DNA of 32,000 nt, from positions 1,980,001-2,012,000 of the forward strand of contig NC_009664.2 of assembly GCF_000017305.1 (NCBI RefSeq), written 5' to 3'. Made by a program: the position numbers and the translations under genes. The notes under the pieces are model-generated. The model did not search any database. It was not told the DNA's origin and saw only the letters and a program-made list of their open reading frames with translations. Below, in pieces: positions 10,865 through 24,191 of this stretch (positions are counted from its first letter, which is position 1; each line of letters opens with the position of its first letter). Source of the DNA: Kineococcus radiotolerans SRS30216 = ATCC BAA-149 (GTDB lineage: Bacteria > Actinomycetota > Actinomycetes > Actinomycetales > Kineococcaceae).

Positions 10865-10865
10865 G

Positions 10866-12202: not shown

Positions 12203-12229
12203 CCATCGGCCGCCGGTGGCCAACCCTGA
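12203..12229 (-). promoter_or_regulatory. Putative sigma-28 (FliA/WhiG)-type promoter of the cheB operon
   Basis: Minus strand reads TCAG-N15-GCCGATGG about 77 nt upstream of the cheB GTG. The -10 matches GCCGATAA in 6/8 positions. The same bipartite motif occurs at 19284-19310 and 24165-24191. Confidence 0.4.
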
Positions 12230-12322
12230 AGCCCGCGTCCCGCTCCTCGTCGCTGCGCGCACACAGCTACTGTGCGTCGCCAAGCGGTCACGCGTCGACC
12301 GGTGCCGCGTCGCCCCCGTCCC

Positions 12323-12362
12323 CCGGCGGGGATCCCGCGCAGTGCTGCGGGATCCCCGCCGG
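12323..12362 (-). terminator. Hairpin downstream of ycnI
   Basis: CCGGCGGGGATCCCGC (12323-12338) pairs with GCGGGATCCCCGCCGG (12347-12362): 16-bp perfect stem, 32 nt after the ycnI stop. No U-tract. Confidence 0.45.
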
Positions 12363-12393
12363 AGGTGCGGCCGGCGCTGCGCGCCGGGGGGGG

Positions 12394-13149
12394 TCAGGCG
12401 CGGCGGCGGCGCAGCAGGACGACGACGAGGGCCGCGAGGCCGAGGGCCAGGCCCGCACCCGCGAGGCCGCGGGCCACCGGGTCCGCCCCCGGCGCCGCCG
12501 TGGTCGAGGCCGCCGGGGTGGTCGCCGGGGTGGCGGCCGCCTCGGCGTGCGACCCGCCGTGGTGGTCCTCGCCCGCCGCGGTGGTGGTGAACTCCGGCGC
12601 GGGCTTGTCCGGCTCCCCGGCCCCCTCCGCGGCGACCTCGCTCCAGTCCGCGACCTCGCCGTCGGCGTAGGTCTGGACGGTGGGCAGGACCACGCGGGTC
12701 CCGGCCCCGGGCAGGGGGCCGACGTTGGCCTCGAACTCCTCGAACTGGCCGACGGCGATCCCCGCCGACCCCGGGTCCGCGGTCCAGGTGACGCTCAGCG
12801 GCGCCTTCGTCAGGGTCGTGCCGCCGACCTCGACGGGCGCCGGCAGCGCGCCCTCGGTGACGACGGCGCTCCAGCCCGCCACGGGCCGGACCGCGACGTA
12901 GGAGAAGGGGTGCTCGGTCGGCAGGGAGACCCGCACCGACGTCGTCGCGGCGGTGTCGGACTCGTTGGGCACCCGGAACGTCACGACGCTGTAGCCGTCG
13001 GCGGCCGTCGTGTCGGGGGTGGCGTGGACGTGCGCCGCGGCGGGCACGGCGGCCAGCAGGAGCGCACCGCCCGCGGTGGCGGCGACCGCCAGGGCGCGGC
13101 TGGTCCGGGCGCGCGCGGGCAGGGTGGAGCGCAGGGTGGAGCGGTTCAC
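12394..13149 (-). CDS. ycnI: YcnI-family (DUF1775) copper-binding protein with signal peptide and C-terminal membrane anchor
   Basis: GTG 13149 lies 5 nt after GAGGAAG. A signal peptide ends AAAHVHATP, giving a mature N-terminal His. FRVPNES motif is present. C-terminal hydrophobic helix plus RRRRA. Confidence 0.85.
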   Translation of the reverse strand: MNRSTLRSTLPARARTSRALAVAATAGGALLLAAVPAAAHVHATPDTTAADGYSVVTFRVPNESDTAATTSVRVSLPTEHPFSYVAVRPVAGWSAVVTEGALPAPVEVGGTTLTKAPLSVTWTADPGSAGIAVGQFEEFEANVGPLPGAGTRVVLPTVQTYADGEVADWSEVAAEGAGEPDKPAPEFTTTAAGEDHHGGSHAEAAATPATTPAASTTAAPGADPVARGLAGAGLALGLAALVVVLLRRRRA

Positions 13150-13170
13150 GGTGTCTTCCTCAGGGGTGGG

Positions 13171-13803
13171 TCAGGACGTGGGGACGGGGGCGGAGCCCAC
13201 CGGCGGACCACGTCGCCTGACCCGGCGCGCGACCACGGACCGCGGTCGCGCGGGGGGCGTCGCGGGGAAGGGCGCGGGGCGGGCGGCGACGAAGCGCAGC
13301 AGGTCCCGCAGGACCCGGGCCAGGGGCCGCAGCCACGCCCACAGCGACCACAGCAGCCGCTCCCCGTGCAGCAGCAGGAGCAGGGCGGCGACGGTCGCCG
13401 CGACGTGGGCCAGGGTCATCGCCGCCGAACCGGACCCGGCGGACCCGGCGGCGCCGTCGACGGCGCCGGTCAGCGGGGTCCACTCCAGGTGGTGGCCGTG
13501 GGCGACGACCGCGACGGCCTGCGCGGGGCAGGCGTCGAACAGCTCGTGCAGCGTGACCTGACCGCCGCCGAGGAGCCCCGCCAGCCCGGACCGGCTGAAG
13601 CGGCGGCCGGCGAGCAGCAGGCTGAGCGCCCCCACCACGACGGCCACGGCGAGCAGCAGCGGGATCCCGGGCGCCCGCCCGCCCGCGGCGAGGTGTGCCC
13701 CGGCGGCCAGGCCGACGACCGTGGTGGCCACCGCTCCCGCCCGGGCGCAGCGCAGCGCCCCGCGCACCGGCGAGGTGCCGGCGGTCGCGGGGCGGTTCGG
13801 CAC
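13171..13803 (-). CDS. Hypothetical integral membrane protein with a His cluster
   Basis: 3-4 hydrophobic segments and VVAHGHHLEW. G/C-rich third positions. Same strand as ycnI and 21 nt upstream of it. Confidence 0.6.
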   Translation of the reverse strand: MPNRPATAGTSPVRGALRCARAGAVATTVVGLAAGAHLAAGGRAPGIPLLLAVAVVVGALSLLLAGRRFSRSGLAGLLGGGQVTLHELFDACPAQAVAVVAHGHHLEWTPLTGAVDGAAGSAGSGSAAMTLAHVAATVAALLLLLHGERLLWSLWAWLRPLARVLRDLLRFVAARPAPFPATPPARPRSVVARRVRRRGPPVGSAPVPTS

Positions 13804-13833
13804 CCCCCCACGCTACCGGGAGGGCGGCGGGGC

Positions 13834-14763
13834 TCAGGCGGGGCCGAAGGCCGCTTCCCACGGGCGCAGGAGGACGGCGCGGGCGTCGGAGGACAGCAGG
13901 TCGGCGACGACCTCGGCGTGCACGACCCCGCTGACGACGTTCCACAGGCCCTCGGCCCCGTCGGCGGCGTCGAGGCCCCCGGCGCGGAAGGCGCGGACGG
14001 CGAGCAGCTGGGCGACGGCGGCGGTGCGCACGCGGTCGGACAGGTGAACCGCCCAGGACGCGTCGTGCACCGCACCCGCCCACTCCCCCGCACCGGGGCG
14101 GCTGGCGGCAGCCACGGCGCGCAGGCAGGCGCGGTCGGTGCCGTCGAGGCGGCGCAGGCGGTCCAGGACCCGCTCGACCCCGGCCTGGGCCTCCCCGAGC
14201 CCGGTCGGGCGCTCGGGCAGCGGGGCGAGGTCGCGGCAGGCCTGCAGGTAGGGGTGGGCCAGGACCCGGCGGGCGTGGTCGGGCAGCCGGTCGCCGAGGT
14301 AGGCGGAGACGGCGGCGTCGGCGAGGACGTCGGCGGCGCGCCCGGCGTCCTCGGTGCGCAGCCGGGGCCCGCCCTCCAGCGGCGCGGACCAGGTCCAGTC
14401 GAAGACGTCGTGGTGCACGAGGCGGACCAGCGCGTCGGCGTCGGCGATGGTGCTGGTCTGCAGGACCCGCACGACCCCCCGCTCGACCCGGGCCCCGGAG
14501 ACCTCGTCGGCGAAGTCGTCGCGGGCGAGGCCGTTGGCCACCTGGTGCAGGACGTCGGTCAGCTGGGGGACGCCGTCGCAGGCGGTGCGCACCGCGTCCC
14601 AGGCGGCCGTGCGGGTGGCCGGGTCGTGGCGGGCGGCGAGGACGTCGATCTCGCGCGGGCCGCAGTCCAGGGCCCGGAGCAGGACCTCCGCGGCGGAGTC
14701 GCCCGCGGGCAGCCGCACGAGGTCGAAACCCAGCACGGGGGAGCTCACCAGGGAGTAGTGCAT
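13834..14763 (-). CDS. Hypothetical protein (309 aa)
   Basis: ATG 14763 lies 9 nt after GGAGG. Balanced amino-acid composition and G/C-rich third positions. The N-terminal 46 codons of ORF 13834..14901 were discarded. Confidence 0.6.
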   Translation of the reverse strand: MHYSLVSSPVLGFDLVRLPAGDSAAEVLLRALDCGPREIDVLAARHDPATRTAAWDAVRTACDGVPQLTDVLHQVANGLARDDFADEVSGARVERGVVRVLQTSTIADADALVRLVHHDVFDWTWSAPLEGGPRLRTEDAGRAADVLADAAVSAYLGDRLPDHARRVLAHPYLQACRDLAPLPERPTGLGEAQAGVERVLDRLRRLDGTDRACLRAVAAASRPGAGEWAGAVHDASWAVHLSDRVRTAAVAQLLAVRAFRAGGLDAADGAEGLWNVVSGVVHAEVVADLLSSDARAVLLRPWEAAFGPA

Positions 14764-14963
14764 GGTCGTCCGCCTCCAGGCCGGTCGTGCGCCGTCCGGT
14801 CGGTCGGCGTGGTTCCACCCTGACACTGCGTGACCCGCCCGGCGAGGCGTCGTCAGCCGTCCGGCGGCACGTCGGCGTGTCGGACCCCCCGCGCAGCTCA
14901 CCGGCCGCGACCGCGCTGCTCCGTCCGGGGGACGCGCGCGCCGGTGCGCCGTAACGTCGGGTC

Positions 14964-15881
14964 GTGGACCAGCAGCCCGACGACGAGCCGCACCGCCCCC
15001 CGACCGAGCCCGCCGGGACCGGGCCCGCCGGAGCCGGGGCGGGCCAGCGGGTGGGCCAGCGGGTGGGTGCGGCGCCGGACCCGGGCGGCTGGGCCTCCTG
15101 GCTGCTGGTGGCCGTCGCCGCGGCCCCGGTGCTGGTGCTGGGCGAGGTGGCCCGCCGCCACCTCGGCGGCGGCCTGGACGCGCGCTACTTCGGGGCCACC
15201 GCCGGCTCCGGCGAGGACGCCGTCGGCCTCGGCCTCGGCTGGTCGACCCGGTTCAGCCTGCTGTGGACGGCGGTGCCGGTGCCGGAGGTGCTGCTGGCGG
15301 CGCTGGCGGGTCTGCTCGTGCTGTGCGCGCTCGTCGTGGCCGGGCGTCCCGCCTGGCTGGTCCCCGGCCGGTGGGGCCGCCGCGCCGCCGCCGGTGTCGC
15401 CGCGCTGGCCGCGGCGGAGAGCCTGATCGCGCTGCTCACCCTGGCCGGGCGGGCCGACGACTCCGAGCGGGAGGGGTTCGGGGGGCTGTCGATCACCTAC
15501 TACGTCCCCCCCACCGGGCGGTTCCCCGAGATCGCCCCCGTCCTCGCGCTGCTCGCGGTGACGACGGTCCTTCCGGCGCTCGCGGCCCTCGTGCTGTGGC
15601 GGGACGGCGACGGCGCCCCGGCGGGACGCGGGGACGACGACGACGTCGATGAGGTCGATGAGGTCGATGAGGTCGATGAGGTCGATGAGGCCCCCGGCGC
15701 CGACGGGGACGACGCCGGGGACCTCGGTGCCACCCCGGCCGTGACGACGCCCACCGCCGCTGCCCCCGGGACGCCCGCCGCCCCGCCCGCGGTGGCGGGG
15801 CGCGGACCGGGCCCGGGCCCCGGGATCCCCACCGTCCCGGCCCACGAGCTCGACGCCTACCGCCGCCCCCGGGTGCCGTGA
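14964..15881 (+). CDS. Hypothetical membrane protein with acidic (VDE)5 repeat tail
   Basis: About 4 hydrophobic helices, then an acidic/Pro-rich tail. The competing minus-strand ORFs are R/G/P-rich frame artefacts. Confidence 0.65.
   Translation: MDQQPDDEPHRPPTEPAGTGPAGAGAGQRVGQRVGAAPDPGGWASWLLVAVAAAPVLVLGEVARRHLGGGLDARYFGATAGSGEDAVGLGLGWSTRFSLLWTAVPVPEVLLAALAGLLVLCALVVAGRPAWLVPGRWGRRAAAGVAALAAAESLIALLTLAGRADDSEREGFGGLSITYYVPPTGRFPEIAPVLALLAVTTVLPALAALVLWRDGDGAPAGRGDDDDVDEVDEVDEVDEVDEAPGADGDDAGDLGATPAVTTPTAAAPGTPAAPPAVAGRGPGPGPGIPTVPAHELDAYRRPRVP
15645..15689 (+). repeat. Perfect 9-bp tandem repeat GTCGATGAG x5 (in-frame VDE x5)
   Basis: Five identical head-to-tail copies, read directly from the sequence. 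Confidence 0.95.
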
Positions 15882-15894
15882 GCCCCGGGACGTC

Positions 15895-16239: not shown

Positions 16240-16261
16240 ACCGCCTGCGGCGGAACGCAGG

Positions 16262-16292
16262 ACGGGGTGGGACCCAGGAGGTCCCACCCCGT
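16262..16292. terminator. Bidirectional hairpin between convergent genes (small hypothetical and cheW)
   Basis: ACGGGGTGGGACC / loop CAGGA / GGTCCCACCCCGT: 13-bp perfect stem, 12 nt after the cheW stop and 23 nt after the + strand stop. Confidence 0.6.
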
Positions 16293-16303
16293 GCGCGCGG
16301 TGC

Positions 16304-16744
16304 TCAGGCCGCGGTGACCGCGCCCTCGATCTCGAGCGCCTTGTCGACGTCGAGGACGAGCAGCAGCGCGTCGTCGAGCTTGTAGGCGCCGCGGATCAGT
16401 TCGCGGATCGGCCCGGACAGCGTGTCCGGCGGCGGCTCGAAGGTGGAGTCGGTGACCTCGATGACGCCCCCGATGGAGTCGACGAGCAGGCTCCACACCT
16501 CCTCGGCGGCGCGGACGACGACGTTCATCGCGACCTTGCCGTCCTCGCGGTCGGGCATGTTCAGCCGGCGGCGCAGGTCCAGCGCGGTGACGACCTGACC
16601 GCGCAGGTTGATCAGGCCGGCGACGGCCCGCGGGGCCAGCGGCGCGGGGGTCCGCGGCTGCTCGGTGAGCACTTCCTGGACCCGCCGGACCTCGACACCG
16701 AAGAGGTGCCCGGCCAGGTGGAACGTGGCGTACTGCGTGGACAC
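16304..16744 (-). CDS. cheW: Chemotaxis coupling protein CheW
   Basis: 146 aa. FHLAGHLFGVEVRRVQEV...GLINLRGQVV...LVDSIGGV...LLLVLDVDK is the typical CheW domain. GTG 16744 lies 1 nt after the cheA TGA. Confidence 0.93.
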   Translation of the reverse strand: MSTQYATFHLAGHLFGVEVRRVQEVLTEQPRTPAPLAPRAVAGLINLRGQVVTALDLRRRLNMPDREDGKVAMNVVVRAAEEVWSLLVDSIGGVIEVTDSTFEPPPDTLSGPIRELIRGAYKLDDALLLVLDVDKALEIEGAVTAA

Positions 16745-16745
16745 G

Positions 16746-19214
16746 TCAGACCCCCAGTCGCATCGAAGCTGCAGCGAGCTCGTTCTGAGCCTGCTCGGAG
16801 AAGAAGTTCGGGTCGGCGGCGAGGATCGCGGACCGGACGTCGAGGAGCTCGGTCACCCGGTCGCGGATGACCGCGGAGCCGACCAGACCGGCGTCGTCGA
16901 TGTCGCTGTGCGCGTCCTGGCCGGAGACGATGTCGACGATCTCGTCGACGACGATCGCGACGGAGCGGCCGCGGGCGGAGTACACGACACCCGGCAGGGA
17001 CGTGACCTCCTCGCCGCCGTAGGACGAGCGCGAGCCGCCACCGAGGTGGTTGGCCAGCCGGACCAGCGGCAGGATCTCGCCGCGGTAGCGGACGACCTCG
17101 CGGCGCCCGACCCGCTCGATGGAGTCGGTCTTGAACTCCTCCAGGCGGGTGACGACGTCCAGCGGGATCGCGACCCGGCGGTTCCCGCCGAGCCCGACGA
17201 CCAGCAGGCGCTGCCCGTCGCCGCTGGCGGCCTGGGCCTCGGCGGCGTCGTCGTTCACGTGCTCCAGGCCGTCGGAGCGCATGGTGCGGCGGGCCAGGGA
17301 CTGCACGTCGAGGATGAGCGAGACCCGCCCGTCGCCGAGGATCGTGGCGCCGGCGTAGGCGCCGATCGCCTTCAGCGCCCCGGAGAGCGGCTTGACGACG
17401 ATCTCCTCGGTGTCCAGGACGCGGTCGACGAGCAGGCCGAAGCGGCGCCCGTCGCACTCCAGGACGGCGATGACGAGGTTGGTGGGGAGCTCCACGTCGG
17501 CGGGGCGCTTGAGCTCCAGCGCCTCCTCGAGGCGGATCAGCGGCAGCAGCGCACCGCGCAGGCGGTACACCTTGGCGCCGCCGACGTCCTCGATGGCCTT
17601 GCTCATGCGCTCGGTGTCGAGGCTGACCAGTTCCAGCAGGTTGACCTGCGGCATGGCGTAGCGCTGGCCGGCGCACTCGACGGTCAGGGCCGGGACGATC
17701 GCCAGGGTCAGCGGGATCCGCAGCCGCCACACGGTGCCCTGGCCGACGACGGACTCGACGTCGACGGAGCCGCCGATGCGCTCGATGTTCGTCTTGACGA
17801 CGTCCATGCCGACGCCGCGGCCGGAGACGTTGGTGACCTTGGCCGCGGTGGAGAAGCCGGGCAGGAACAGGAACTGCAGGATGTCGTTGGGGGTCAGCGA
17901 CTCGAGCTTGGCCGCGGAGACCAGGCCCTTCTCGACGGCCTTGGCGCCGATGATGGTCGGGTCGATGCCCTTGCCGTCGTCGCGGATCTCGACGACGACC
18001 TGGCCGCCCTCGTGGGCCGCGCGCAGCTTCAGGGTGCCGACCTCGTTCTTGCCGGCGGCGGTGCGGACCTCGGGGGACTCGATGCCGTGGTCGACCGCGT
18101 TGCGGACGATGTGGGTCAACGGGTCCTTGACCGCCTCGAGGAGGGTGCGGTCGAGCTCGGTGTCGCCGCCCTCCATCTCGAGCTTGATCTTGCGGTTCAG
18201 CATGTTGCCGAGGTCGCGGACGACGCGGGGCAGCTTGGACCACAGGTGGTCGATGGCCTGCATGCGGGTGCGCATGACCGATTCCTGCATCTCGCTCGCG
18301 ACGAGGTTCAGGCGGTGGCAGGCGCGGGTGAGGTCCTCGTCGCGCAGGGCGCCGGCGCGCTGCAGGATCTGGTTGCGGGCGAGGACGAGCTCACCGGCCT
18401 GGCGGACCAGGGACTCCAGCAGCTCCACGTCCACGCGGATCGTCGACTCGGCCGCGGAGGCCTTCTCGGCGGGAGCACCGGGGGCGGGAGCGCCGGGGGC
18501 GGGGGCGGCGTGCGCGGCGGGCGCGGGGACGGCGACGGGCTCGGGGGCGACCTCGACGACCGGGGCGACCTCGACCGGCGCGGCGGCCTCGACGGGGGCG
18601 GGCGCGGCGACGGGCTCGGGGGCGACCTCGACGACCGGGGCGACCTCGACCGGCGCGGGGGCGGCCTCGACGACGGGCTCGGGAACGACCTCGGCGACCG
18701 GCGCGGGAGCGACCTCGACGGGCGCGGGGGCGGTCTCGGCGACCGGCGCGGGCGCCGGCGCGGCGGCCGGGGCGGGCTCGGAGACGACCTCGACGCCGGC
18801 CCCGTCGGACGCCGGCAGGACCGGCACCTCGCCGTCGAGCACGGCGCGGATGGCCGCGACGACCGCGGCGACCTCGACACCGTCCTCGGTGTGCGACTCC
18901 TCGATCTTCGTCAGCAGCAGGCGGATGGTGTCGACCATGCGCAGCAGGACGTCGGTGGTGACCGGCGTCATGACGAGCTGGCCGTCGCGCAGCCGGGCCA
19001 GCAGGTTCTCACCGACGTGGGCCACGGCCTCGAGGCGGGAGAACGCCAGGAAGCCGGAGGTGCCCTTGATCGTGTGGATGGTGCGGAACACGCTCGCGAG
19101 CAGCTCGCGGGAGCCGGGCTGCTGCTCCAGCGCGACGAGGTCGGAGTCCAGCTGGTCCAGGTTCTCGTAGCTCTCGACGAGGAACTCCTGGACGATCTCG
19201 TCCATGTCGTCCAC
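16746..19214 (-). CDS. cheA: Chemotaxis histidine kinase CheA (P1 / repeat linker / P3 / P4 / P5 / extra CheW-like domain)
   Basis: P1 Hpt motif FRTIHTIKGTSGF. P3 is STIRVDVELLESLV. P4 is HIVRNAVDHGIE, DDGKGI, GRGVGMDVV. Two consecutive CheW-like regions follow. Start is GTG 19214 (5 nt after GGGAG), ATG 19205 or GTG 19226. Confidence 0.93.
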   Translation of the reverse strand: MDDMDEIVQEFLVESYENLDQLDSDLVALEQQPGSRELLASVFRTIHTIKGTSGFLAFSRLEAVAHVGENLLARLRDGQLVMTPVTTDVLLRMVDTIRLLLTKIEESHTEDGVEVAAVVAAIRAVLDGEVPVLPASDGAGVEVVSEPAPAAAPAPAPVAETAPAPVEVAPAPVAEVVPEPVVEAAPAPVEVAPVVEVAPEPVAAPAPVEAAAPVEVAPVVEVAPEPVAVPAPAAHAAPAPGAPAPGAPAEKASAAESTIRVDVELLESLVRQAGELVLARNQILQRAGALRDEDLTRACHRLNLVASEMQESVMRTRMQAIDHLWSKLPRVVRDLGNMLNRKIKLEMEGGDTELDRTLLEAVKDPLTHIVRNAVDHGIESPEVRTAAGKNEVGTLKLRAAHEGGQVVVEIRDDGKGIDPTIIGAKAVEKGLVSAAKLESLTPNDILQFLFLPGFSTAAKVTNVSGRGVGMDVVKTNIERIGGSVDVESVVGQGTVWRLRIPLTLAIVPALTVECAGQRYAMPQVNLLELVSLDTERMSKAIEDVGGAKVYRLRGALLPLIRLEEALELKRPADVELPTNLVIAVLECDGRRFGLLVDRVLDTEEIVVKPLSGALKAIGAYAGATILGDGRVSLILDVQSLARRTMRSDGLEHVNDDAAEAQAASGDGQRLLVVGLGGNRRVAIPLDVVTRLEEFKTDSIERVGRREVVRYRGEILPLVRLANHLGGGSRSSYGGEEVTSLPGVVYSARGRSVAIVVDEIVDIVSGQDAHSDIDDAGLVGSAVIRDRVTELLDVRSAILAADPNFFSEQAQNELAAASMRLGV
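18531..18680 (-). repeat. 75-bp tandem duplication inside the CheA P1-P3 linker
   Basis: A 53-bp string (ggcgacgggctcgggggcgacctcgacgaccggggcgacctcgaccggcgcgg) occurs identically at 18531 and 18606. It encodes PVEVAPVVEVAPEPVA twice, with a 25-aa period. Confidence 0.8.
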
Positions 19215-19283: not shown

Positions 19284-19310
19284 TCATCGGCACCGGGGCG
19301 GCAAAGCTGA
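19284..19310 (-). promoter_or_regulatory. Putative sigma-28 (FliA/WhiG)-type promoter of cheA-cheW
   Basis: Minus strand reads TTTCAG-N15-GCCGATGA (-10 matches GCCGATAA in 7/8 positions), about 70 nt upstream of the cheA start and downstream of the cvnD hairpin. Confidence 0.4.
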
Positions 19311-19342
19311 AACGCCCGGGCCGGCGGGCCGCGGGCCGGACG

Positions 19343-19384
19343 CGCGAGAGGCCGGCCCCCCGGGTGGGGGACCGGCCTCTCGCG
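19343..19384 (-). terminator. Long hairpin immediately after cvnD
   Basis: CGCGAGAGGCCGG (19343-19355) pairs with CCGGCCTCTCGCG (19372-19384). An inner CCCCC/GGGGG stem lies between them. It starts 13 nt after the cvnD stop. Confidence 0.55.
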
Positions 19385-19396
19385 GGTCGGGCGGCG

Positions 19397-20029
19397 TCAG
19401 ACGCCGGTGTTGAGGCGGGCGAGCGCCGTCTGCACGAGCGTGATGAGGCTGTGCTTGGTCGCGGCCTTGCTGCGCGCGTCGGTGTAGACGAGCGGGACGT
19501 TGTCGGGGACGCCGAGGGCCTCGCGCACGGAGTCGAGGTCGTGCTGGGCGACGCCGTCGAAGCAGTTGACCGCGACGACGAACGGGATCCCGCGGGACTC
19601 GAAGTAGTCGACGGCCGGGAAGCACTGGTCGAGGCGGTCGGTGTCGACGAGGACGACGGCACCGATGGCGCCCTTGACCAGGTCGTCCCACATGAAGAGG
19701 AAGCGGTCCTGGCCGGGGGTGCCGAAGAGGTACAGCCACAGGTTGCCCGGCAGGGCGATGCGGCCGAAGTCCATGGCGACGGTGGTCGAGGTCTTGCGGT
19801 CGGAGTTCAGGCCCGCGTCGTCGACCCCGACCGAGTGCTCGGTCATGGCGGCTTCGGTGCGCAGCGGCTCGATGTCGGAGATCGAGCCGATGAAGGTCGT
19901 CTTGCCGACGGCGAACCCGCCGGCGACGACGATCTTGACGACGGTGGGCGGTGCCTGAGGAGCCGTTCCGGCGGGCGCTCCGGCTCCGGCGGGGCTGACG
20001 TCAGAGCGAGGAAATGCCATTGAGAACAC
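19397..20029 (-). CDS. cvnD: Conservon small GTPase (CvnD-type, MglA/Ras-like ATP/GTP-binding protein)
   Basis: P-loop GGFAVGKTT, TTVAMDFGRI, LFGTPGQDRF, VLVDTDRL and VAVNCFDG match the CvnD family pattern. Start is GTG 20029 or ATG 20020; it overlaps the cvnC 3' end. Confidence 0.85.
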   Translation of the reverse strand: MFSMAFPRSDVSPAGAGAPAGTAPQAPPTVVKIVVAGGFAVGKTTFIGSISDIEPLRTEAAMTEHSVGVDDAGLNSDRKTSTTVAMDFGRIALPGNLWLYLFGTPGQDRFLFMWDDLVKGAIGAVVLVDTDRLDQCFPAVDYFESRGIPFVVAVNCFDGVAQHDLDSVREALGVPDNVPLVYTDARSKAATKHSLITLVQTALARLNTGV

Positions 20030-20396
20030 TCTCCAGGACGCTGATGGTGGTCGCGGGTTGGGGGGCGGAGGTCATCGTGAGGCCGTGGACGCGGACCTTC
20101 CCCGAGGAGGAGAGGTCGCTCACCACGACACGCACGACTCCGACCGGCAGGTGGACGTGCGCGGACAGTTCCGCGATCGACAGGTAGGACTTCTTGGTGA
20201 GTTCGAGGATCTTGCGCCGTTCCGGGGTCATCCCGACGTCCGGTTCGGCCAGGGCCTCCACGAGCGCCTCGACCGGGAGCTCGACCCCGCTGGCGCGGGT
20301 CCGGCCACCGGTGACGGTGTACGGGCGGACGGTGAACTCCTCGACGTCCTGGTCGTCGTCGTCGGACCAGAGGTCCGCGCTACCAGGTGCTGTCAC
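20001..20396 (-). CDS. cvnC: Conservon DUF742 protein (CvnC-type)
   Basis: VRPYTVTGGRTR...LPVEALV...TPERRKILEL...LSIAELSAHVHLPVGVVRVVVSDL is the typical DUF742 signature. Confidence 0.85.
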   Translation of the reverse strand: MTAPGSADLWSDDDDQDVEEFTVRPYTVTGGRTRASGVELPVEALVEALAEPDVGMTPERRKILELTKKSYLSIAELSAHVHLPVGVVRVVVSDLSSSGKVRVHGLTMTSAPQPATTISVLESVLNGISSL

Positions 20397-20402
20397 GTCG
20401 CG

Positions 20403-20849
20403 TCACCACCGGGAGGCGACCGGCGCGGAGGTGGGCAGGTTCGCCCGCATCTCCGACACCAGCTGCGGGGTCAGGACGGTCTCGGCGCGCTGGACCAGCA
20501 TCGCCATCTCGTAGCCGATGAGCCCGACGTCGCAGCCGGCCTCGGCGGAGACGGCCAGGACCGACCCGTCGGAGATGTTGACCAGGAAGAAGAACGAGTC
20601 GTCCATCTCGATGATGGCCTGGCGCACCTCCCCGGAGTCCAGCTGGCGGGCGGCGCCGCGGGCCAGGCTCGAGACGCCCGAGACGATCGCGGCGAGCTGG
20701 TCGCCGGACTCCCGGTCGAGCTTGTCGGACATGGCCATCAGGAGACCGTCGGCGGAGACGACGACGGTGTGGGTGACGCCGGGGACGCTCTTGACGAAGT
20801 TGTCGAGGAGCCAGCTGAAGTCGGCGGCCTCGGAGCTGAGCACGGTCAC
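20403..20849 (-). CDS. cvnB: Conservon Roadblock/LC7 (MglB-like) protein (CvnB-type)
   Basis: FSWLLDNFVKSVPGVTHTVVVSADGLLMA...DQLAAIVSGVSSLARGAA...VRQAIIEMDD...VLAVSAEAGCDVGLIGYEMAMLV is the typical Roadblock/LC7 pattern. Confidence 0.88.
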   Translation of the reverse strand: MTVLSSEAADFSWLLDNFVKSVPGVTHTVVVSADGLLMAMSDKLDRESGDQLAAIVSGVSSLARGAARQLDSGEVRQAIIEMDDSFFFLVNISDGSVLAVSAEAGCDVGLIGYEMAMLVQRAETVLTPQLVSEMRANLPTSAPVASRW

Positions 20850-20936
20850 AGTGGTGTTCCTCTTCCATGGCGGGGCGGTCGGGTCGGCTGTTGGTCGGGG
20901 TGGGGCGGGACCCGGAGGAGGTTCCGGGGGTTCGGG

Positions 20937-23900
20937 TCAGGCGTCGCCATCAGCACCGCTCCCGGTGGGGGCGTCGCCCTCGGTGCGGCCGCGGGACACG
21001 CCGGCCTGGAAGCCGGACAGCATCGAGCGGACGTCGGCGGGGGCGCGGCGCTGGCGGTTGGCCGCGGTCGAGCGGACCGGGGCGGGCTTGGCCGCGGCCG
21101 CCGTGGCACCCGCCTGGCGGCGGATCAGCGGCGCGGACCCGGTGCCCCGGGCGGGGGTGAAGTTCTGGCCCTCGGTGAGGGCGCTGAGGGCGTCCGCGGC
21201 CAGCGCGCTGCGCTGGCGCAGGGCCTCCCCGACAGTGCGGGTCTGGGCGGGCACCTCGACGACCGGGGCCGGGGCCTCGGGGGCGGGGGCCGGGACCTCC
21301 GCGGCCGGGGCCGGAGCCGCGGCGACGGGCGCCTCGACGACCGGGACCTCGACCGCGGGGACCTCGACGACCGGGACCTGCGGGGCCCGGGCGACCGGGG
21401 CCTGGACCACGGGGACCTCGACGACCGGGACCACGGGGGTCTCGGCCACCGGGACCTCGGCCACGGGGGCCTCGGCCGCGGGGACCTCGGCGACCGGGCC
21501 CTGCCGGCCGGCGCGGCCGGCCTCGAGCGCGTCCAGCGCCGAGCCCTCGACGGTCGCCGGCTCCTCCCGCTTGCTGCGGGAGGTCCAGAACGCCTCGGCG
21601 GCGGTCTTGGGCGGGGACACCGTGTCGCGGACCTGGCGGGGCTTCTTGCCGGCGCGCGGCAGGATGTCCTGCGCCGCGGCCAGGGCCGTGGGGGCCTCGA
21701 CCTTGCGCTCGCGCTTGGGCATCGCCGAGGTGGCGGTGGCCGGCGCGGTCACCGGCTTCCAGTCCTCCTCGGCCGCGGGAGCCGCGGCCGGGGCCGGAGC
21801 CGGCGCCGGGGCGGAGGCGTCGACCTTGGCCTGCGCCTGAGCGGTGCGGCGACGGGTCGGCAACTGCCGGCCCTCCACCTTCGCCGTGGGCGAGGAGGCG
21901 TTGACCTCCGAGCTCGCCGCCGCCTGGGCCGCGGACTCCTGCAGCGTCGCCGACAGCGCGTCGCCCAGGCCCGCGGCCGCCAGCGGGTTGCTGACGATCG
22001 TGCTGGCCCCGGGGGCCGGGGTGCGGGTGGGCAGGGCGGCGGGGGCCTGCGGCGCGGCGGACGGGGCGGCGTCCTCGGGCAGGGCCGAGACGGGGCCGTC
22101 CAGGGCGGGCAGACCGCTGTCGAGGGCCGCGAGCTCCGGCTCACCGGCCTTGACCGAACCCGGGGTGAACAGCGCCGCGGGCAGGACGAGGGTGACGGTG
22201 GTGCCGACGCCCTCGGCGGTGTCGAAGTGGACGTCGACGTCGAGGCGGCCGGCGAGGCGGCCGACGACGTAGAACCCGAGGCGCTGGGCGCCGACGAACT
22301 CCGAGGCGCGGCCGCCGGAGATGCGCTGGTGGGCCGCCTCGACCTCCTCGGCGTTCATGCCGAGGCCGGTGTCGCGGATCGTGACCTCGACGCCGCGGTC
22401 GGTCTCGGCGGTGCCGACGACGACGCGGGTGCCGGGGTCGGAGAAGTTCGTCGCGTTCTCGAGGAGCTCGGCGATCATGTGCGAGGCCGACAGGGCGAGG
22501 TGGCCCACGACGGGCGGGTCGGCCTGGAGGGCGAGGTCCACGCGGTCGTAGTGCTCGATCTCCCCGGCCGCGGTGCGGACGACGTCCGACAGCGGCAGCG
22601 GGCGGCGCAGGCGGCGGCCGGTGTTGATGCCGGCCAGGACGAGCAGGGACTCGGCGTTGCGCCGCATCCGGGTCGCGAGGTGGTCGAGGGTGAAGAGGTC
22701 CTCGAGGGTGTCGGGGTTCTCCTCGGTGCGCTCCAGCTGGTCCAGGAAGGCCAGCTGGCGGGCCAGCAGGGTCTGGTCGCGGCGGGCGACGTTGACGAAC
22801 ATCTCGGCGATCGAGGCGCGCAGGGCGGCCTGCTCGCCGGCGATGCGGAAGGTCGTCTCGTTGAGGTCGTTGATGACGTGGGCGACCTCACCGATCTCGT
22901 CGGTGCTCGTGACCTCCAGGGGGCTGAACTCCACCCCGGGGCCCTCGCCGGGGGTCTGCATGCGCTCGACCATGCGGGGCAGCTCGTCGCGGACCGCGGT
23001 GGCGGCGTCGGCGAGGGCGCGCAGGCGGCGGCCGATGTCGCGGGCCACGCGCAGGCCGAAGAGGGTGACGGCGGCGAAGAGGACGAGGGTCCCGACCAGC
23101 AGGGCCAGCGTGCCGGCGAGGGCGCGGGTCGAGGCGGCGTCGGCGCGCTCGGCCACGGTCCCGGCGATCTCGTTGGCGGCGTCCCGGTAGACGGCGATGA
23201 CCTCGTCGGTGGTCTCCTCCCAGCCCTCCTCGGGCAGGGTGGGGACACCGGTGGCGGCGGCGAAGATGTTGCGGTCCTGGGTGAGGAACGCCAGCGACTG
23301 GGTGGCCTGGGAGGCGTTGAGCGCACCGTCGAGGAGCGCGGTGGCGTCGTCGTGGAGGCGGTGGCGGGCCTGCTGCTCGAAGTAGTTCCCCTGCTCGATG
23401 GCGTTGCCGCGCAGGTCGCTCACCGCGGTGTTGCCGTCGCCCTGGACGATGAGGTCGCCGGCGGCCTGCTCGATCGAGAGGGCGTCGACGCGCTTGAGCA
23501 GGTACCCGAAGGCGGCGACGTCGTCGGCCAGCTCGCGGTCGTCGGCCTGCTCGGCGACGGTCACAGTGAGGTCGGTGGCGGCGGAGGACACGGCGCTGTA
23601 GCTGTTCAGCGCCGCGAGCGGGGAGGTGGTGCCGTTGTCGACGGCGGTGCGCGTCTGCGGGAGGGTCTGCCCGAGGGCCCGCTGCACGCTCGCGTAGACG
23701 GAGGCGCTGGAGCCCTCGCTCAGGTCGAGGCCGCTGTCGGCGATGGCCCCGGTCACCGCGGCGATCGCCGCGTCGGTGGCGGCGCGGTCGGCGACGACCT
23801 CCGCCTTCCCCTCCTCGCTCGGGGCGGGCAGGTACTCCAGGGTGCTGCGACGCTCGGTCTGCAGGGCCGTGAAGAAGTCGTTGATCGTCTGCGCGGACTT

Positions 23901-24041
23901 CGCGTAGGCGGCCAGGTGGCGGCGCTCCGTGGTGGACGCCACGTTCTGCGCCGCCGTCGCGATGACGGCGACGAGCAGCAGCACGAGGGGTACCACCAGG
24001 AGGACCGCGAGCTTCGCTCGGATGCTCAGGTTCCGCAGCAT
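20937..24041 (-). CDS. cvnA: Conservon sensor-kinase-like membrane protein (CvnA-type: TM / NIT-like / TM / HAMP / HATPase_c / long disordered tail)
   Basis: ATG 24041 lies 5 nt after GGAAGG. N-terminal helix LRNLSIRAKLAVLLVVPLVLLLV, a periplasmic NIT-like region, a second TM and HAMP. ATPase boxes AELLENATNFS, RDTGLGM, GFYVV. The tail is a 409-aa Ala/Pro/Val/Glu-rich region. The upstream 452 codons of ORF 20937..25397 were discarded. Confidence 0.85.
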   Translation of the reverse strand: MLRNLSIRAKLAVLLVVPLVLLLVAVIATAAQNVASTTERRHLAAYAKSAQTINDFFTALQTERRSTLEYLPAPSEEGKAEVVADRAATDAAIAAVTGAIADSGLDLSEGSSASVYASVQRALGQTLPQTRTAVDNGTTSPLAALNSYSAVSSAATDLTVTVAEQADDRELADDVAAFGYLLKRVDALSIEQAAGDLIVQGDGNTAVSDLRGNAIEQGNYFEQQARHRLHDDATALLDGALNASQATQSLAFLTQDRNIFAAATGVPTLPEEGWEETTDEVIAVYRDAANEIAGTVAERADAASTRALAGTLALLVGTLVLFAAVTLFGLRVARDIGRRLRALADAATAVRDELPRMVERMQTPGEGPGVEFSPLEVTSTDEIGEVAHVINDLNETTFRIAGEQAALRASIAEMFVNVARRDQTLLARQLAFLDQLERTEENPDTLEDLFTLDHLATRMRRNAESLLVLAGINTGRRLRRPLPLSDVVRTAAGEIEHYDRVDLALQADPPVVGHLALSASHMIAELLENATNFSDPGTRVVVGTAETDRGVEVTIRDTGLGMNAEEVEAAHQRISGGRASEFVGAQRLGFYVVGRLAGRLDVDVHFDTAEGVGTTVTLVLPAALFTPGSVKAGEPELAALDSGLPALDGPVSALPEDAAPSAAPQAPAALPTRTPAPGASTIVSNPLAAAGLGDALSATLQESAAQAAASSEVNASSPTAKVEGRQLPTRRRTAQAQAKVDASAPAPAPAPAAAPAAEEDWKPVTAPATATSAMPKRERKVEAPTALAAAQDILPRAGKKPRQVRDTVSPPKTAAEAFWTSRSKREEPATVEGSALDALEAGRAGRQGPVAEVPAAEAPVAEVPVAETPVVPVVEVPVVQAPVARAPQVPVVEVPAVEVPVVEAPVAAAPAPAAEVPAPAPEAPAPVVEVPAQTRTVGEALRQRSALAADALSALTEGQNFTPARGTGSAPLIRRQAGATAAAAKPAPVRSTAANRQRRAPADVRSMLSGFQAGVSRGRTEGDAPTGSGADGDA

Positions 24042-24164
24042 GTCAACCTTCCGTACGCGATGGTGGGCGGGCGAGTACCGCCCACCGGGGTCGAGCAGAC
24101 TCAGAGGTGATCGGGACGCGGACCGGCGGGGTGAACCCCCGGGGGCCGACAACCCTCGTTCGGC

Positions 24165-24191
24165 CCATCGGCAGCCCGGCGCGTCGCCTGA
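24165..24191 (-). promoter_or_regulatory. Putative sigma-28 (FliA/WhiG)-type promoter of the conservon
   Basis: Minus strand reads TCAG-N15-GCCGATGG about 120 nt upstream of the cvnA ATG. Core and spacing are identical to the cheB and cheA sites. Confidence 0.4.

What the first reader, a model, noticed from the sequence alone, without database searches (positions are those of the whole stretch)
12203..24191. Identical bipartite motif TCAG-N15-GCCGATG(G/A) upstream of cheB, cheA and the conservon: a shared sigma-28/FliA/WhiG-like promoter
Seen, reading the minus strand:
- cheB site (12229-12203): gcTTCAG-GGTTGGCCACCGGCG-GCCGATGG.
- cheA site (19310-19284): gtTTCAG-CTTTGCCGCCCCGGT-GCCGATGA.
- cvnA site (24191-24165): ggGTCAG-GCGACGCGCCGGGCT-GCCGATGG.
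- All three lie in intergenic DNA in the correct orientation, about 70-120 nt upstream of the first start codon of a minus-strand operon. The spacer is exactly 15 nt each time.
- In my non-exhaustive visual scan, other GCCGATG occurrences (inside coding regions, e.g. near 6323 and 25325) lack TCAG at that spacing.

Established: flagellar/chemotaxis sigma factors (FliA, SigD, WhiG) recognise TAAA-N15-GCCGATAA.

Inference: the two che operons and the conservon form one regulon driven by a motility-type sigma factor with a divergent -35 element.
Basis: partly seen in the sequence, partly recalled or inferred. Interest (0 to 1): 0.8.

Follow-up and report, generated by a model that had tools for sequence, protein, structure and literature searches.

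The report
Motility-sigma promoters before chemotaxis and conservon operons
Three intergenic sites in this Kineococcus radiotolerans window look like promoters for the flagellar sigma factor (sigma-28/FliA/WhiG) in the form already described for motile actinobacteria; two precede ordinary chemotaxis operons, and the third precedes a G-protein-like "conservon" signalling operon, a target I found in no paper.

Summary
TCAG-N15-GCCGATG occurs exactly three times in the window (0.02 expected). All three sites are intergenic, on the minus strand, and lie 77, 69 and 123 nt before the start codons of cheB, cheA and cvnA.

The -35 element is not a new divergent form. Read as nTCA-N16-GCCGAT, the motif fits the published actinobacterial FliA/WhiG1 consensus CTCA-N16-17-GCCGAACT with one mismatch.

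- **Organism.** The window is K. radiotolerans SRS30216, which has a fliA gene (Krad1625) beside its flagellin gene.
- **Conservation.** Both boxes are kept in other Kineococcus species (cheA in four, cvnA in five, cheB in one) while the spacers and flanks diverge.
- **Same motif elsewhere.** It precedes cheA and cheB in other actinobacterial families, and fliC, flgK, cheA and an mcp gene in one uncultured actinobacterium. Relaxed versions precede two further K. radiotolerans chemoreceptor genes.
- **Conservon.** Metagenomic cvnA homologues of only 34-41% identity also carry CTCA-N17-GCCGA(T/A) upstream.

This is a new member of a known kind. The modest novelty is a NIT-sensor conservon as a conserved member of the sigma-28 regulon. 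There are no transcription start-site or sigma-deletion data, and the Kineococcus flagellar island could not be fetched.

The parts
12203..12230 (-). Predicted sigma-28-type promoter of the cheB-cheR-cheY-cheX-response-regulator operon: -35 TTCA (12230-12227), 16-nt spacer, -10 GCCGATGG (12210-12203).
   Evidence: Exact match and sequence. K. aurantiacus keeps TTCAAGGTTG-N10-GCCGATGGA. Blastococcus cheB genes carry CTCAAGG-N13-GCCGAT about 120 nt upstream.
19284..19311 (-). Predicted sigma-28-type promoter of the cheA-cheW operon: -35 TTCA (19311-19308), 16-nt spacer, -10 GCCGATGA (19291-19284).
   Evidence: TTTCAG-N15-GCCGATG is conserved in 5 Kineococcus species (GCCGATGAGCA in four, GCCGATGC in K. 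xinjiangensis) with unrelated spacers and flanks. It is kept in strain L001 despite a gene inserted between cvnD and cheA. CTCAG-N15-GCCGAT(G/C)A precedes cheA in A. solisilvae, L018 and L024.
24165..24192 (-). Predicted sigma-28-type promoter of the conservon cvnABCD: -35 GTCA (24192-24189), 16-nt spacer, -10 GCCGATGG (24172-24165).
   Evidence: The -10 box GCCGATG(G/A) is kept in 6 further Kineococcus-type loci (L001, L002, L088-L091, L094). GTCA(A/G) sits 16 nt upstream of it in L001, L002, L089, L090 and L094, and 17 nt upstream in L088; the -35 is degraded to CTCC in L091. K. xinjiangensis has TTCAG-N15-GCCGAACG at the same place. Metagenomic cvnA homologues of 34-41% identity have CTCA-N17-GCCGA(T/A) at -76 to -104.
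24157..24164 (-). A second -10-like box, GCCGAACG, directly after the first. It has no TCA at the right distance in this genome. It is part of the conserved block (G/T)CCGAACGAGGGTT.
   Evidence: Alignment. In K. xinjiangensis this box, not GCCGATGG, sits 16 nt after TCA, which fits an 8-nt duplication or deletion that preserved promoter geometry.
24108..24135 (-). Candidate second, weaker sigma-28-like site upstream of cvnA: TTCA-N16-CCCGATCA, 66 nt before the ATG.
   Evidence: It is kept as TTCA-N16-CCCGA(T/A) in L088, L090 and L094, and as CTCA-N17-(A/C)CCGA in K. xinjiangensis and SYSU DK005. K. aurantiacus has lost the -35 (TACA). The whole 5' UTR is conserved in the closer species, so this is unresolved.
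8253..12125 (-). Operon cheB (10866-12125), cheR (10034-10864), cheY (9654-10037), cheX (9154-9657) and a response regulator (8253-9149). The genes overlap or abut.
   Evidence: Pfam. Gene calls and Pfam families in L001, mapped onto the window.
16304..19214 (-). Operon cheA (16746-19214) and cheW (16304-16744).
   Evidence: Pfam (Hpt, H-kinase_dim, HATPase_c, CheW). The CheW protein is identical to ABS01805.1 of K. radiotolerans SRS30216.
19397..24041 (-). Conservon: cvnA (20937-24041; NIT + HATPase_c), cvnB (20403-20849; Roadblock/LC7), cvnC (20001-20396; DUF742) and cvnD (19397-20020; small GTPase, ATP_bind_1).
   Evidence: Pfam. The same gene order occurs in all Kineococcus loci.
19343..19384 (-). 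Strong GC-rich hairpin after the cvnD stop codon, just upstream of the cheA promoter. It is terminator-like but has no U-tract.
   Evidence: ViennaRNA fold of 19396-19330, -59.8 kcal/mol. The simple terminator scan, which needs a T-run, does not list it.
12320..12365 (-). Strong hairpin after the DUF1775 gene stop codon, just upstream of the cheB promoter.
   Evidence: ViennaRNA fold of 12393-12310, -69.5 kcal/mol.

Best explanation
The three sites are promoters read by RNA polymerase carrying the flagellar-type sigma factor of Kineococcus radiotolerans. This is FliA, a member of the sigma-28/SigD/WhiG family; because its gene sits in the flagellar island, it is probably of the WhiG1 clade.

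Proposed mechanism:
- Sigma region 4 contacts nTCA at -35.
- Sigma region 2 contacts GCCGATG(G/A) at -10, 16 nt downstream of the TCA.
- Transcription would start about 6-9 nt after the -10 box, giving 5' UTRs of roughly 60-115 nt.

When FliA is active, presumably as the cells turn into motile zoospores, three units are switched on together: cheB-cheR-cheY-cheX-RR, cheA-cheW, and the NIT-sensor conservon cvnABCD.

Shown here: the motif, its statistics, its position, its conservation, its match to the published consensus, and its presence before flagellar and chemotaxis genes in other actinobacteria. Inferred: which sigma factor binds, where transcription starts, co-expression, and any role of the conservon in motile cells.
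For: 1. **Statistics.** There are three exact matches against 0.02 expected. The shorter core TCA-N16-GCCGAT occurs 12 times in 171 kb of Kineococcus DNA against 0.89 expected. All 12 hits are intergenic and point at the gene downstream; 10 of them are the cvnA, cheA and cheB sites.
2. **Published consensus.** WhiG1/FliA of Actinoplanes missouriensis is reported as CTCA-N16-17-GCCGAACT and WhiG2 as T(A/C)AA-N16-GCCGATAA, both with an invariant CGA (Denis et al. 2026, PMC12871210). The window sites are (T/G)TCA-N16-GCCGATG(G/A).
3. **Footprint.** The cheA site is conserved in K. xinjiangensis, Kineococcus sp. GCM10028916, K. aurantiacus and K. rhizosphaerae while the spacers differ completely. 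The cvnA and cheB sites behave the same way.
4. **Insertions.** Genes inserted between cvnD and cheA (L001, L088) leave the cheA site directly upstream of cheA.
5. **Other taxa.** In L018 the motif CTCAG-N15-GCCGAT(G/A)(A/G) precedes fliC, flgK, cheA and an mcp gene, next to a fliA gene. It also precedes cheA in Modestobacter, A. solisilvae, L024, L040, L048 and L062, and cheB in three Blastococcus genomes.
6. **Chemoreceptors in the same species.** Two further K. radiotolerans mcp genes carry TTCAG-N15-CCCGATGA and CTCA-N17-GCCGATGG upstream.
7. **Sigma factor.** K. radiotolerans has fliA (Krad1625) beside fliC (Bagwell et al. 2008, PMC2587704).
8. **Insulation.** Strong hairpins separate the cheA and cheB units from the genes upstream, so each unit needs its own promoter.
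9. **Distant conservons.** cvnA homologues of 34-41% identity in soil metagenomes carry CTCA-N17-GCCGA(T/A) 76-104 nt upstream.
Against: - No transcription start-site, expression or sigma-deletion data exist for Kineococcus.
- I could not fetch the flagellar island of K. radiotolerans, so the key test, the same motif before fliC or flg genes in this genome, was not done.
- None of the three sites has the exact published -35 CTCA.
- The orthologous sites are not independent observations. The closer Kineococcus species conserve the whole cvnA UTR, so only K. xinjiangensis, SYSU DK005 and the metagenomic contigs are informative for that site.
- The two mcp sites fit only a relaxed motif. The literature-style relaxed pattern (one mismatch allowed in either box, CGA fixed, spacer 15-17) hits 30 times in the 32-kb window, so such matches are weak evidence on their own.
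- The motif cannot tell WhiG1 from WhiG2 paralogues.
Confidence: 0.78

Rival explanations
1. The bipartite motif is the operator of a transcription factor, such as a response regulator that activates motility genes. Under this reading it is not a promoter, and its likeness to the sigma-28 -10 box is a coincidence.
For: Two short conserved boxes with a fixed spacing could also be half-sites for a dimer. The cvnA region keeps extra conserved sequence (CCGAACGAGGGTT) right after the box, and a similar GAACGAGGG follows the mcp site in L088. That could be a regulator site.
Against: The two boxes are neither direct nor inverted repeats of each other (TCA versus GCCGATG). Their sequence, spacing (16-17 nt) and distance from the genes are those of sigma-28 promoters in three independent literature consensus definitions. 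The orientation is strictly tied to the gene downstream in all 12 core hits. No sigma-70-type promoter was detected that such a factor could regulate, although that scan uses the E. coli consensus and is weak in 75% GC DNA.
Confidence: 0.07
2. The promoters are real but are read by a different alternative sigma factor: either a second WhiG2-type paralogue controlled by c-di-GMP and RsiG, or an unrelated group 3 or ECF sigma factor. The flagellar-island FliA would not be involved.
For: Denis et al. could not separate WhiG1 from WhiG2 targets by motif. Several Kineococcus cvnA sites read GTCAAG, which contains the WhiG2 -35 TCAA one base downstream. K. radiotolerans has an exceptionally large c-di-GMP gene set.
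Against: ECF promoters (AAC at -35, CGT at -10) do not fit the sequence. I have no evidence that Kineococcus has a second WhiG paralogue; the held papers name only Krad1625.
Confidence: 0.1
3. The che sites are real sigma-28 promoters, but the cvnA site is a look-alike kept for another reason, such as a UTR or operator element. The conservon would then not belong to the motility regulon.
For: The whole 200-nt region between the mobA-like gene and cvnA is well conserved in the closer Kineococcus species. The -35 is GTCA here and is degraded to CTCC in SYSU DK005. One group of metagenomic homologues (L095, L096, L103) has GCCGAACG-like boxes without a clear -35.
Against: K. xinjiangensis differs by an 8-nt indel yet still has TTCAG-N15-GCCGAACG. 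Five distinct metagenomic loci of 34-41% CvnA identity (L097-L100 and L104; L101 is nearly identical to L100), with otherwise unalignable upstream DNA, carry CTCA-N17-GCCGA(T/A) at a similar distance. The cvn-cheA linkage is conserved across the genus.
Confidence: 0.15
4. The ATG inside GCCGATG is a start codon, giving an N-terminally longer CheB or a small leader ORF. The conserved motif would then reflect translation signals.
For: At the cheB site the ATG at 12206 is in frame with cheB, and the ORF listing reports a 446-aa ORF starting there.
Against: At cheA the ATG is out of frame with the gene; the TGA inside GCCGATGA is a stop codon in the cheA frame. Between K. radiotolerans and K. aurantiacus the 81-nt stretch has separate 1-nt and 2-nt indels, so the would-be peptide is not conserved. 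The gene call in strain L001 starts at the GTG with a GGAAGG ribosome-binding site, and the receiver domain begins a few residues later.
Confidence: 0.02

Closest known systems
FliA/WhiG1-dependent promoters of Actinoplanes missouriensis (Hashiguchi et al. 2020, as summarised by Denis et al. 2026, PMC12871210): CTCA-N16-17-GCCGAACT
   Same: Same architecture: TCA at -35, a 16-nt spacer and GCCGA with a CGA core at -10. Same kind of targets (flagellar, chemotaxis and pilus genes of zoospores). Same setting: a zoospore-forming actinobacterium whose fliA sits in the flagellar cluster and which has no FlgM.
   Different: The first -35 base is T or G rather than C at all three window sites. The -10 tail is ATG(G/A) rather than AACT. 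A conservon is not a reported target in the text I could read. The exact-CTCA or T(A/C)AA rule of the Denis et al. screen would not have picked up these sites, and Kineococcus is not mentioned in that paper.
Classical sigma-28/SigD/WhiG promoters: TAAA-N15-GCCGATAA (Helmann 1991, as cited in PMC8325347 and PMC12871210)
   Same: The -10 box matches 6-7 of 8 bases (GCCGATGG, GCCGATGA). The spacing is equivalent, and chemotaxis operons are classic late flagellar regulon members.
   Different: The -35 TAAA is replaced by nTCA. The genome is 75% GC and the last two -10 bases are G/A rather than AA.
WhiG2 promoters of Streptomyces venezuelae and Rubrobacter radiotolerans: T(A/C)AA-N16-GCCGATAA, controlled by RsiG and c-di-GMP (PMC8325347)
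   Same: Same sigma family and -10 core. The -35 forms overlap: CTCAAG contains TCAA.
   Different: The targets there are sporulation or type IV pilus genes and c-di-GMP enzymes. I did not test whether Kineococcus has RsiG.
Conservons of Streptomyces (cvn1, cvn8, cvn9) and the mycobacterial mfp conservon (PMC4316618, PMC8510531, PMC13343842)
   Same: Same four-gene unit: a histidine-kinase-like CvnA with a NIT domain, a Roadblock/MglB-like CvnB, a DUF742 CvnC and a Ras/MglA-like GTPase CvnD.
   Different: The known roles are aerial mycelium formation, specialised metabolism and fluoroquinolone resistance in non-motile organisms. This one sits beside cheA in a flagellated genus behind a sigma-28-type promoter. 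No held paper links conservons to FliA/WhiG or to flagellar motility.
MglA/MglB polarity module of Myxococcus xanthus
   Same: CvnD and CvnB are homologues of MglA and MglB, a GTPase and partner pair that steers motility.
   Different: MglAB controls gliding and pilus polarity, and is not encoded with a kinase or with che genes. A motility role for this conservon is only a hypothesis.

Membership tests
sigma-28 (FliA/SigD/WhiG)-dependent promoter | -10 element resembling GCCGATAA with an invariant central CGA | tested here: met
   The boxes are GCCGATGG, GCCGATGA and GCCGATGG, matching 6-7 of 8 bases with CGA present. Criterion taken.
sigma-28 (FliA/SigD/WhiG)-dependent promoter | -35 element: classical TAAA, or the actinobacterial forms CTCA (WhiG1) or T(A/C)AA (WhiG2) | tested here: inconclusive
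   TAAA is absent. The sites read TTCA, TTCA and GTCA, which is 3 of 4 against CTCA. TCA is invariant in all Kineococcus orthologues except SYSU DK005 (CTCC). An exact CTCA occurs at one K. radiotolerans mcp gene and in the metagenomic cvnA homologues.
sigma-28 (FliA/SigD/WhiG)-dependent promoter | Fixed spacer of 15-17 nt between the two elements | tested here: met
   The spacing is TCA-N16-GCCGA at all three sites and at all but one orthologous site; the cvnA site of L088 has N17. It is kept in K. xinjiangensis despite an 8-nt indel.
sigma-28 (FliA/SigD/WhiG)-dependent promoter | Intergenic, co-oriented with a start codon and within about 200 nt of it | tested here: met
   The 8-mers end 77, 69 and 123 nt before the cheB, cheA and cvnA start codons.
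sigma-28 (FliA/SigD/WhiG)-dependent promoter | A cognate sigma-28-family gene in the same genome | tested here: met
   This rests on the literature only. Krad1625 is a FliA homologue beside fliC Krad1626 (PMC2587704). The window is K. radiotolerans SRS30216 (CheW = ABS01805.1). The gene itself could not be fetched.
sigma-28 (FliA/SigD/WhiG)-dependent promoter | Same motif upstream of flagellar and other chemotaxis genes of the same organism | tested here: inconclusive
   Two of two further K. radiotolerans mcp genes have relaxed matches. The flagellar island was unreachable. In another actinobacterium (L018) the motif precedes fliC, flgK, cheA and mcp.
sigma-28 (FliA/SigD/WhiG)-dependent promoter | Boxes conserved while the spacer and flanks diverge in related species | tested here: met
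   Alignments of the cheA, cvnA and cheB upstream regions from 5, 6 and 2 Kineococcus species. The same holds in more distant taxa.
sigma-28 (FliA/SigD/WhiG)-dependent promoter | Transcription starts 6-9 nt downstream of the -10 box and depends on the sigma factor | not testable with these tools
   No start-site or mutant data for Kineococcus appear in the held literature.
Conservon (cvnABCD) | Four genes in order: histidine-kinase-like CvnA, Roadblock/LC7 CvnB, DUF742 CvnC and small GTPase CvnD | tested here: met
   Pfam finds NIT + HATPase_c, Robl_LC7, DUF742 and ATP_bind_1 in that order. The definition comes from PMC4316618 and PMC13343842.
ECF sigma promoter | AAC-containing -35 box and CGT-containing -10 box, 16-17 nt apart (from my own knowledge) | tested here: not met
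   The sequences have neither element at the conserved boxes.
Repeated mobile or REP-like element | Similarity extending beyond the two short boxes | tested here: not met
   An alignment of the three sites with 60-nt flanks shows no similarity outside the boxes.

The most novel reading that the evidence does not exclude
A particular NIT-sensor conservon, a bacterial G-protein-like module with an MglA-like GTPase and an MglB-like partner, may be an ancient and conserved member of the flagellar sigma-28 regulon in motile actinobacteria. The lineages seen here are Kineococcus and an uncultured lineage whose CvnA is closest to a Motilibacteraceae sequence. In Kineococcus the conservon sits next to cheA. 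On this reading it works in the motile zoospore, for example by coupling nitrate or nitrite sensing to flagellar behaviour or zoospore development. That would be the first physiological setting for a conservon outside Streptomyces and Mycobacterium.
Probability: 0.3. Interest if true: 0.6.

Novelty: new member of a known kind. Interest (0 to 1): 0.4.

Why it matters
[quoted passage not shown] They also show that the genus uses nTCA rather than a strict CTCA at -35. Screens that demand an exact CTCA or T(A/C)AA would therefore miss these promoters.

The more interesting point concerns the conservon. Conservon function is still poorly understood, and here one lies behind the same promoter type, beside cheA, in every Kineococcus genome examined. 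More distant homologues carry the same promoter type as well. This gives a specific hypothesis for a G-protein-like signalling module: it is expressed with, and perhaps acts in, the motility programme. A fliA deletion and a cvn deletion would test it.

Tried and rejected
- **Fetching the Kineococcus fliA gene and flagellar island.**
  - I took E. coli FliA and used tblastn to find fliA in two MAG loci.
  - A profile search with those two sequences listed no Kineococcus protein among its top 120 hits.
  - Look-ups of four SRS30216 MCP proteins found no record; that genome seems to be withheld from the look-up.
  - Accession arithmetic suggests, on an assumed accession-to-locus-tag offset, that the MCPs I could reach lie about 300 genes from the island.
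  - The last look-up (K. auxinigenes CvnA) also returned nothing.
- **Literature-style relaxed pattern in the window.** CTCA-N15-17-GCCGA with one mismatch gave 30 hits, mostly inside genes. It is too loose in 75% GC DNA to reveal further sites.
- **Sigma-70 and terminator consensus scan.** It was uninformative in this GC-rich DNA: no promoters, and one coding-region terminator hit.
- **Rfam search of the window and of the cvnA UTR.** There is no known RNA element in the three leaders.
- **Repeat-element reading.** Rejected, because there is no similarity beyond the boxes.
- **Start-codon reading of the ATG in GCCGATG.** Rejected.
- **Papers not held.** Jang 2016, Buttner 2017 and Kimura 2019 could not be read. 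The supplementary tables of Denis et al. are not held either, so I could not check whether a conservon kinase appears among their 131 target clusters.
- **Coding false positive.** GTCATGAAGAC...GCAGCCGATCG inside cheA of other actinobacteria matches the core pattern because of protein conservation. I discounted it.

Full report
**1. Observation**

The pattern TCAG-N15-GCCGATG has exactly three matches in the 32-kb window. All are on the minus strand, at 12229-12204, 19310-19285 and 24191-24166. Dinucleotide shuffles expect 0.02 matches, and none of 100 shuffles reaches three. GCCGATG alone occurs 15 times, and only these three copies have TCAG at that spacing. This test is partly circular, because the pattern was read off the same sites. 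The weight therefore rests on the independent tests in sections 4 to 7.

**2. Organism and genes**

The window is 75% GC. Its CheW protein is identical to ABS01805.1 of Kineococcus radiotolerans SRS30216. Its CvnA is 98% identical to that of a second K. radiotolerans strain.

Pfam and gene calls in the near-identical strain locus L001 give three transcription units on the minus strand:
- cheB (10866-12125), cheR, cheY, cheX and a response regulator, running down to 8253.
- cheA (16746-19214) and cheW (16304-16744).
- A complete conservon: cvnA (20937-24041; NIT + HATPase_c), cvnB (Roadblock/LC7), cvnC (DUF742) and cvnD (small GTPase; 19397-20020).

The 8-mer boxes end 77, 69 and 123 nt before the cheB, cheA and cvnA start codons. 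The cvnA site lies in the roughly 200-nt gap between cvnA and a divergent MobA-like gene. The cheA and cheB sites lie just downstream of very stable hairpins (-59.8 and -69.5 kcal/mol) that follow the stop codons of cvnD and a DUF1775 gene. Each unit is therefore likely to need its own promoter.

**3. What the motif really is**

Including the base before TCA, the sites read:
- TTCA-N16-GCCGATGG (cheB)
- TTCA-N16-GCCGATGA (cheA)
- GTCA-N16-GCCGATGG (cvnA)

Denis et al. (bioRxiv 2026, PMC12871210) summarise the experimentally derived actinobacterial consensus sequences. WhiG1/FliA of Actinoplanes missouriensis is CTCA-N16-17-GCCGAACT. WhiG2 of Streptomyces and Rubrobacter is T(A/C)AA-N16-GCCGATAA. 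Both have an invariant CGA in the -10 box.

The window sites fit the WhiG1 form with one mismatch, at the first -35 base. They also match 6-7 of 8 bases of the classical -10 GCCGATAA. The G of "TCAG" is not a conserved position: it is A at the cvnA and cheB sites of other Kineococcus species.

**4. Conservation within the genus**

I fetched orthologous loci from a second K. radiotolerans strain (L001), K. xinjiangensis (L007), Kineococcus sp. GCM10028916 (L088), K. aurantiacus (L089), K. rhizosphaerae (L090) and Kineococcus sp. SYSU DK005 (L091). The gene order is the same throughout: MobA-like gene, then the divergent cvnABCD, then cheAW, then the DUF1775 gene, then cheBR.

*cheA site.* Five species share TTTCAG-N15-GCCGATG (GCCGATGAGCA in four, GCCGATGC in K. 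xinjiangensis). Their 15-nt spacers are unrelated (CTTTGCCGCCCCGGT, GTGAGGGCCCGGCGT, CTCCGGCACTCGAAT, CTTCGGGACGCGGCT, CTCCCGGCCTCCGCT), and the DNA further upstream cannot be aligned. That is the footprint expected of a promoter.

*Insertions.* In L001 a 581-aa gene on the opposite strand sits between cvnD and cheA. In L088 an mcp gene sits there. In both, the site stays immediately upstream of cheA.

*cheB site.* It is kept in K. aurantiacus as TTCAAGGTTG-N10-GCCGATGGA.

*cvnA site.*
- The -10 box GCCGATG(G/A) is kept in all the Kineococcus-type loci.
- GTCA(A/G) lies 16 nt upstream of it in most and 17 nt upstream in L088. The -35 is degraded to CTCC in SYSU DK005.
- In these genomes the box is followed directly by a second -10-like box, (G/T)CCGAACG.
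- K. xinjiangensis differs by an 8-nt indel and has TTCAG-N15-GCCGAACG. The -35/-10 geometry has therefore been preserved through a length change.

*Core pattern across the genus.* TCA-N16-GCCGAT occurs 12 times in 171 kb of Kineococcus DNA against 0.89 expected. All 12 hits are intergenic and co-oriented with the next gene, and 10 of them are the cvnA, cheA and cheB sites.

**5. The same motif on motility genes elsewhere**

- **L018.** This contig from an uncultured actinobacterium carries fliA, fliC, fliD, fliS, flgK and flgL next to cheA. CTCAG-N15-GCCGAT(G/A)(A/G) lies in front of fliC, flgK, cheA and an mcp gene.
- **cheA in other families.** CTCA(A/G)-N15-GCCGA(T/A) also precedes cheA in Modestobacter, Actinoplanes solisilvae, a Nocardioidaceae MAG, a Nocardioides MAG, Planomonospora and Planosporangium.
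- **cheB.** The motif lies about 120 nt before cheB in three Blastococcus genomes.
- **K. radiotolerans chemoreceptors.** Both further mcp loci I could reach have relaxed versions. One is TTCAG-N15-CCCGATGA, about 90 nt upstream. The other is CTCA-N17-GCCGATGG, ending 6 nt before the GTG, which would give a leaderless mRNA. Relaxed matches are weak evidence in this GC-rich DNA; the literature-style relaxed pattern hits 30 times in the window.

**6. The sigma factor**

Bagwell et al. (2008, PMC2587704) report a FliA homologue, Krad1625, beside flagellin Krad1626 in the motility island Krad1621-1673. They found no FlgM and stated that regulation of the island could not be discerned. I could not fetch that island (see section 10). 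So the presence of the sigma factor rests on the literature, and the test "same motif before fliC in this genome" remains undone.

**7. The conservon as a target**

This is the part that is not routine.

A scan of metagenome contigs with CvnA returned one Kineococcus-like contig, L094. It carries the same two sites upstream of cvnA.

The scan also returned five distinct contigs (L097-L100 and L104; L101 nearly duplicates L100).
- Their CvnA is only 34-41% identical to the query.
- Its closest named relatives are an unclassified actinobacterial MAG protein and, more distantly, a Motilibacteraceae MAG protein.
- Their upstream DNA is otherwise unalignable, yet all carry CTCA-N17-GCCGATGG or CTCA-N17-GCCGAAGC at -76 to -104 from the cvnA start.

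A third group (L095, L096, L103) has GCCGAACG-like boxes without a clear -35 element.

No held paper links conservons to WhiG/FliA or to flagellar motility. The Denis et al. text mentions neither Kineococcus nor conservons. Their search rule requires an exact CTCA or T(A/C)AA at fixed spacing, which would not retrieve the K. radiotolerans sites. Their supplementary tables are not held, so I cannot exclude that a conservon kinase sits among their 131 target clusters.

**8. Mechanism proposed**

FliA-RNA polymerase recognises nTCA at -35 and GCCGATG(G/A) at -10, and starts transcription about 6-9 nt downstream. This co-expresses both che operons and the NIT-sensor conservon when the motility programme is on.

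- Shown: sequence, position, statistics, conservation, match to the consensus, and association with motility genes in relatives.
- Inferred: the identity of the sigma factor, the start sites, co-expression, and any function of the conservon in motile cells.

**9. Rivals**

- **Transcription-factor operator.** Unlikely: the two boxes are not repeats of each other, and they match sigma-28 geometry.
This cannot be excluded, but it keeps the sigma-28 interpretation.
- **The cvnA site as a look-alike.** This is the most serious rival. The indel-compensated K. xinjiangensis site and the distant metagenomic sites argue against it.
- **The ATG in GCCGATG as a start codon.** Rejected. It is out of frame at cheA, and the putative peptide at cheB is broken by separate indels between species.
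- **A repeated mobile element.** Rejected.
- **A known RNA element in the leaders.** No Rfam family matches them.

**10. Limits**

- No experimental data exist for Kineococcus transcription.
- The Kineococcus flagellar island and fliA gene could not be retrieved.
- Orthologous sites are not independent counts.

**11. Verdict**

These are sigma-28-family (FliA/WhiG1-type) promoters of the kind already described for motile actinobacteria, so the che part is ordinary. The conserved placement of a NIT-sensor conservon behind such a promoter, next to cheA, is a modest but real new lead. Novelty: new member of a known kind. Interest: about 0.4.

Noticed in passing
window 24108-24135 (minus strand): A second sigma-28-like site lies 66 nt before the cvnA ATG: TTCA-N16-CCCGATCA. 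It is kept as (T/C)TCA-N16-17-(C/A)CCGA in most Kineococcus-type loci, including the divergent K. xinjiangensis and SYSU DK005; K. aurantiacus has lost the -35 (TACA). It could be a tandem second promoter or part of a conserved leader.
   Followed up: partly
window 24150-24164 (minus strand); L088 about 14850-14865: The block (G/T)CCGAACGAGGGTT directly follows the cvnA -10 box in several species. A similar GGGAACGAGGGGT follows the CTCA-N18-GCCGATGG site in front of the mcp gene inserted between cvnD and cheA in Kineococcus sp. GCM10028916. The leaders of cheA (GCACGGAGAGCAAGAGA) and cheB (GGAAGAGGAGCC) are also purine-rich and contain GGA. This could be an initial-transcribed element, a regulator site or CsrA-type sites; csrA lies in the K. 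radiotolerans motility island.
   Followed up: no
L001 5560-7305; L088 14908-16500: The cvnD-cheA gap is a hotspot for insertions. One K. radiotolerans strain has a 581-aa SLFN/AlbA_2 + HATPase_c_4 gene there on the opposite strand. Kineococcus sp. GCM10028916 has an mcp gene there. The window has neither.
   Followed up: partly
L093 9966-10003 (K. radiotolerans strain GCA_014191015.1): An mcp gene has CTCA-N17-GCCGATGG ending 6 nt before its GTG start. A sigma-28 transcript from this site would be leaderless.
   Followed up: no
L089 1596-1624 and L090 630-658 (minus strands): Upstream of an aldo/keto reductase gene in K. aurantiacus and K. rhizosphaerae lies GGTCAAG(A/G)TCG(A/T)TCGATC...CCGATCGA. 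This GATC-rich repeat matches the loose core pattern but looks more like a separate operator. The window's orthologous region (about 28100-28230, plus strand) lacks it.
   Followed up: partly
L093 2095-2122: TTCA-N16-GCCGATCA sits about 40 nt upstream of an NT5C (5'-nucleotidase) gene in K. radiotolerans. It may be another sigma-28-type target or a chance hit.
   Followed up: no
window 4970-5062 (minus strand): A 93-nt tRNA gene (Rfam RF00005, 57.9 bits). It lies between an acyltransferase gene and a glycosyltransferase gene.
   Followed up: no
window 1-8227: The cheB operon is flanked by further signalling and envelope genes: a histidine-kinase C-terminus (3-629), a receiver protein (630-1025), a fusion of a receiver domain to a family-2 glycosyltransferase (ORF 758-3442, gene start not determined), and an EAL-domain c-di-GMP phosphodiesterase (6953-8227, plus strand) convergent with the end of the cheB operon. 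Denis et al. report c-di-GMP enzymes as frequent WhiG targets, but I saw no motif upstream of this EAL gene.
   Followed up: partly
L008, L010, L011, L019, L086, L016, L018, L046 (inside cheA): GTCATGAAGAC(G/C)CG(C/G)ATGCAGCCGATCG inside the cheA coding sequence of many actinobacteria matches TCA-N16-GCCGAT purely through protein conservation. It is a caution for genome-wide scans that do not mask coding DNA.
   Followed up: yes
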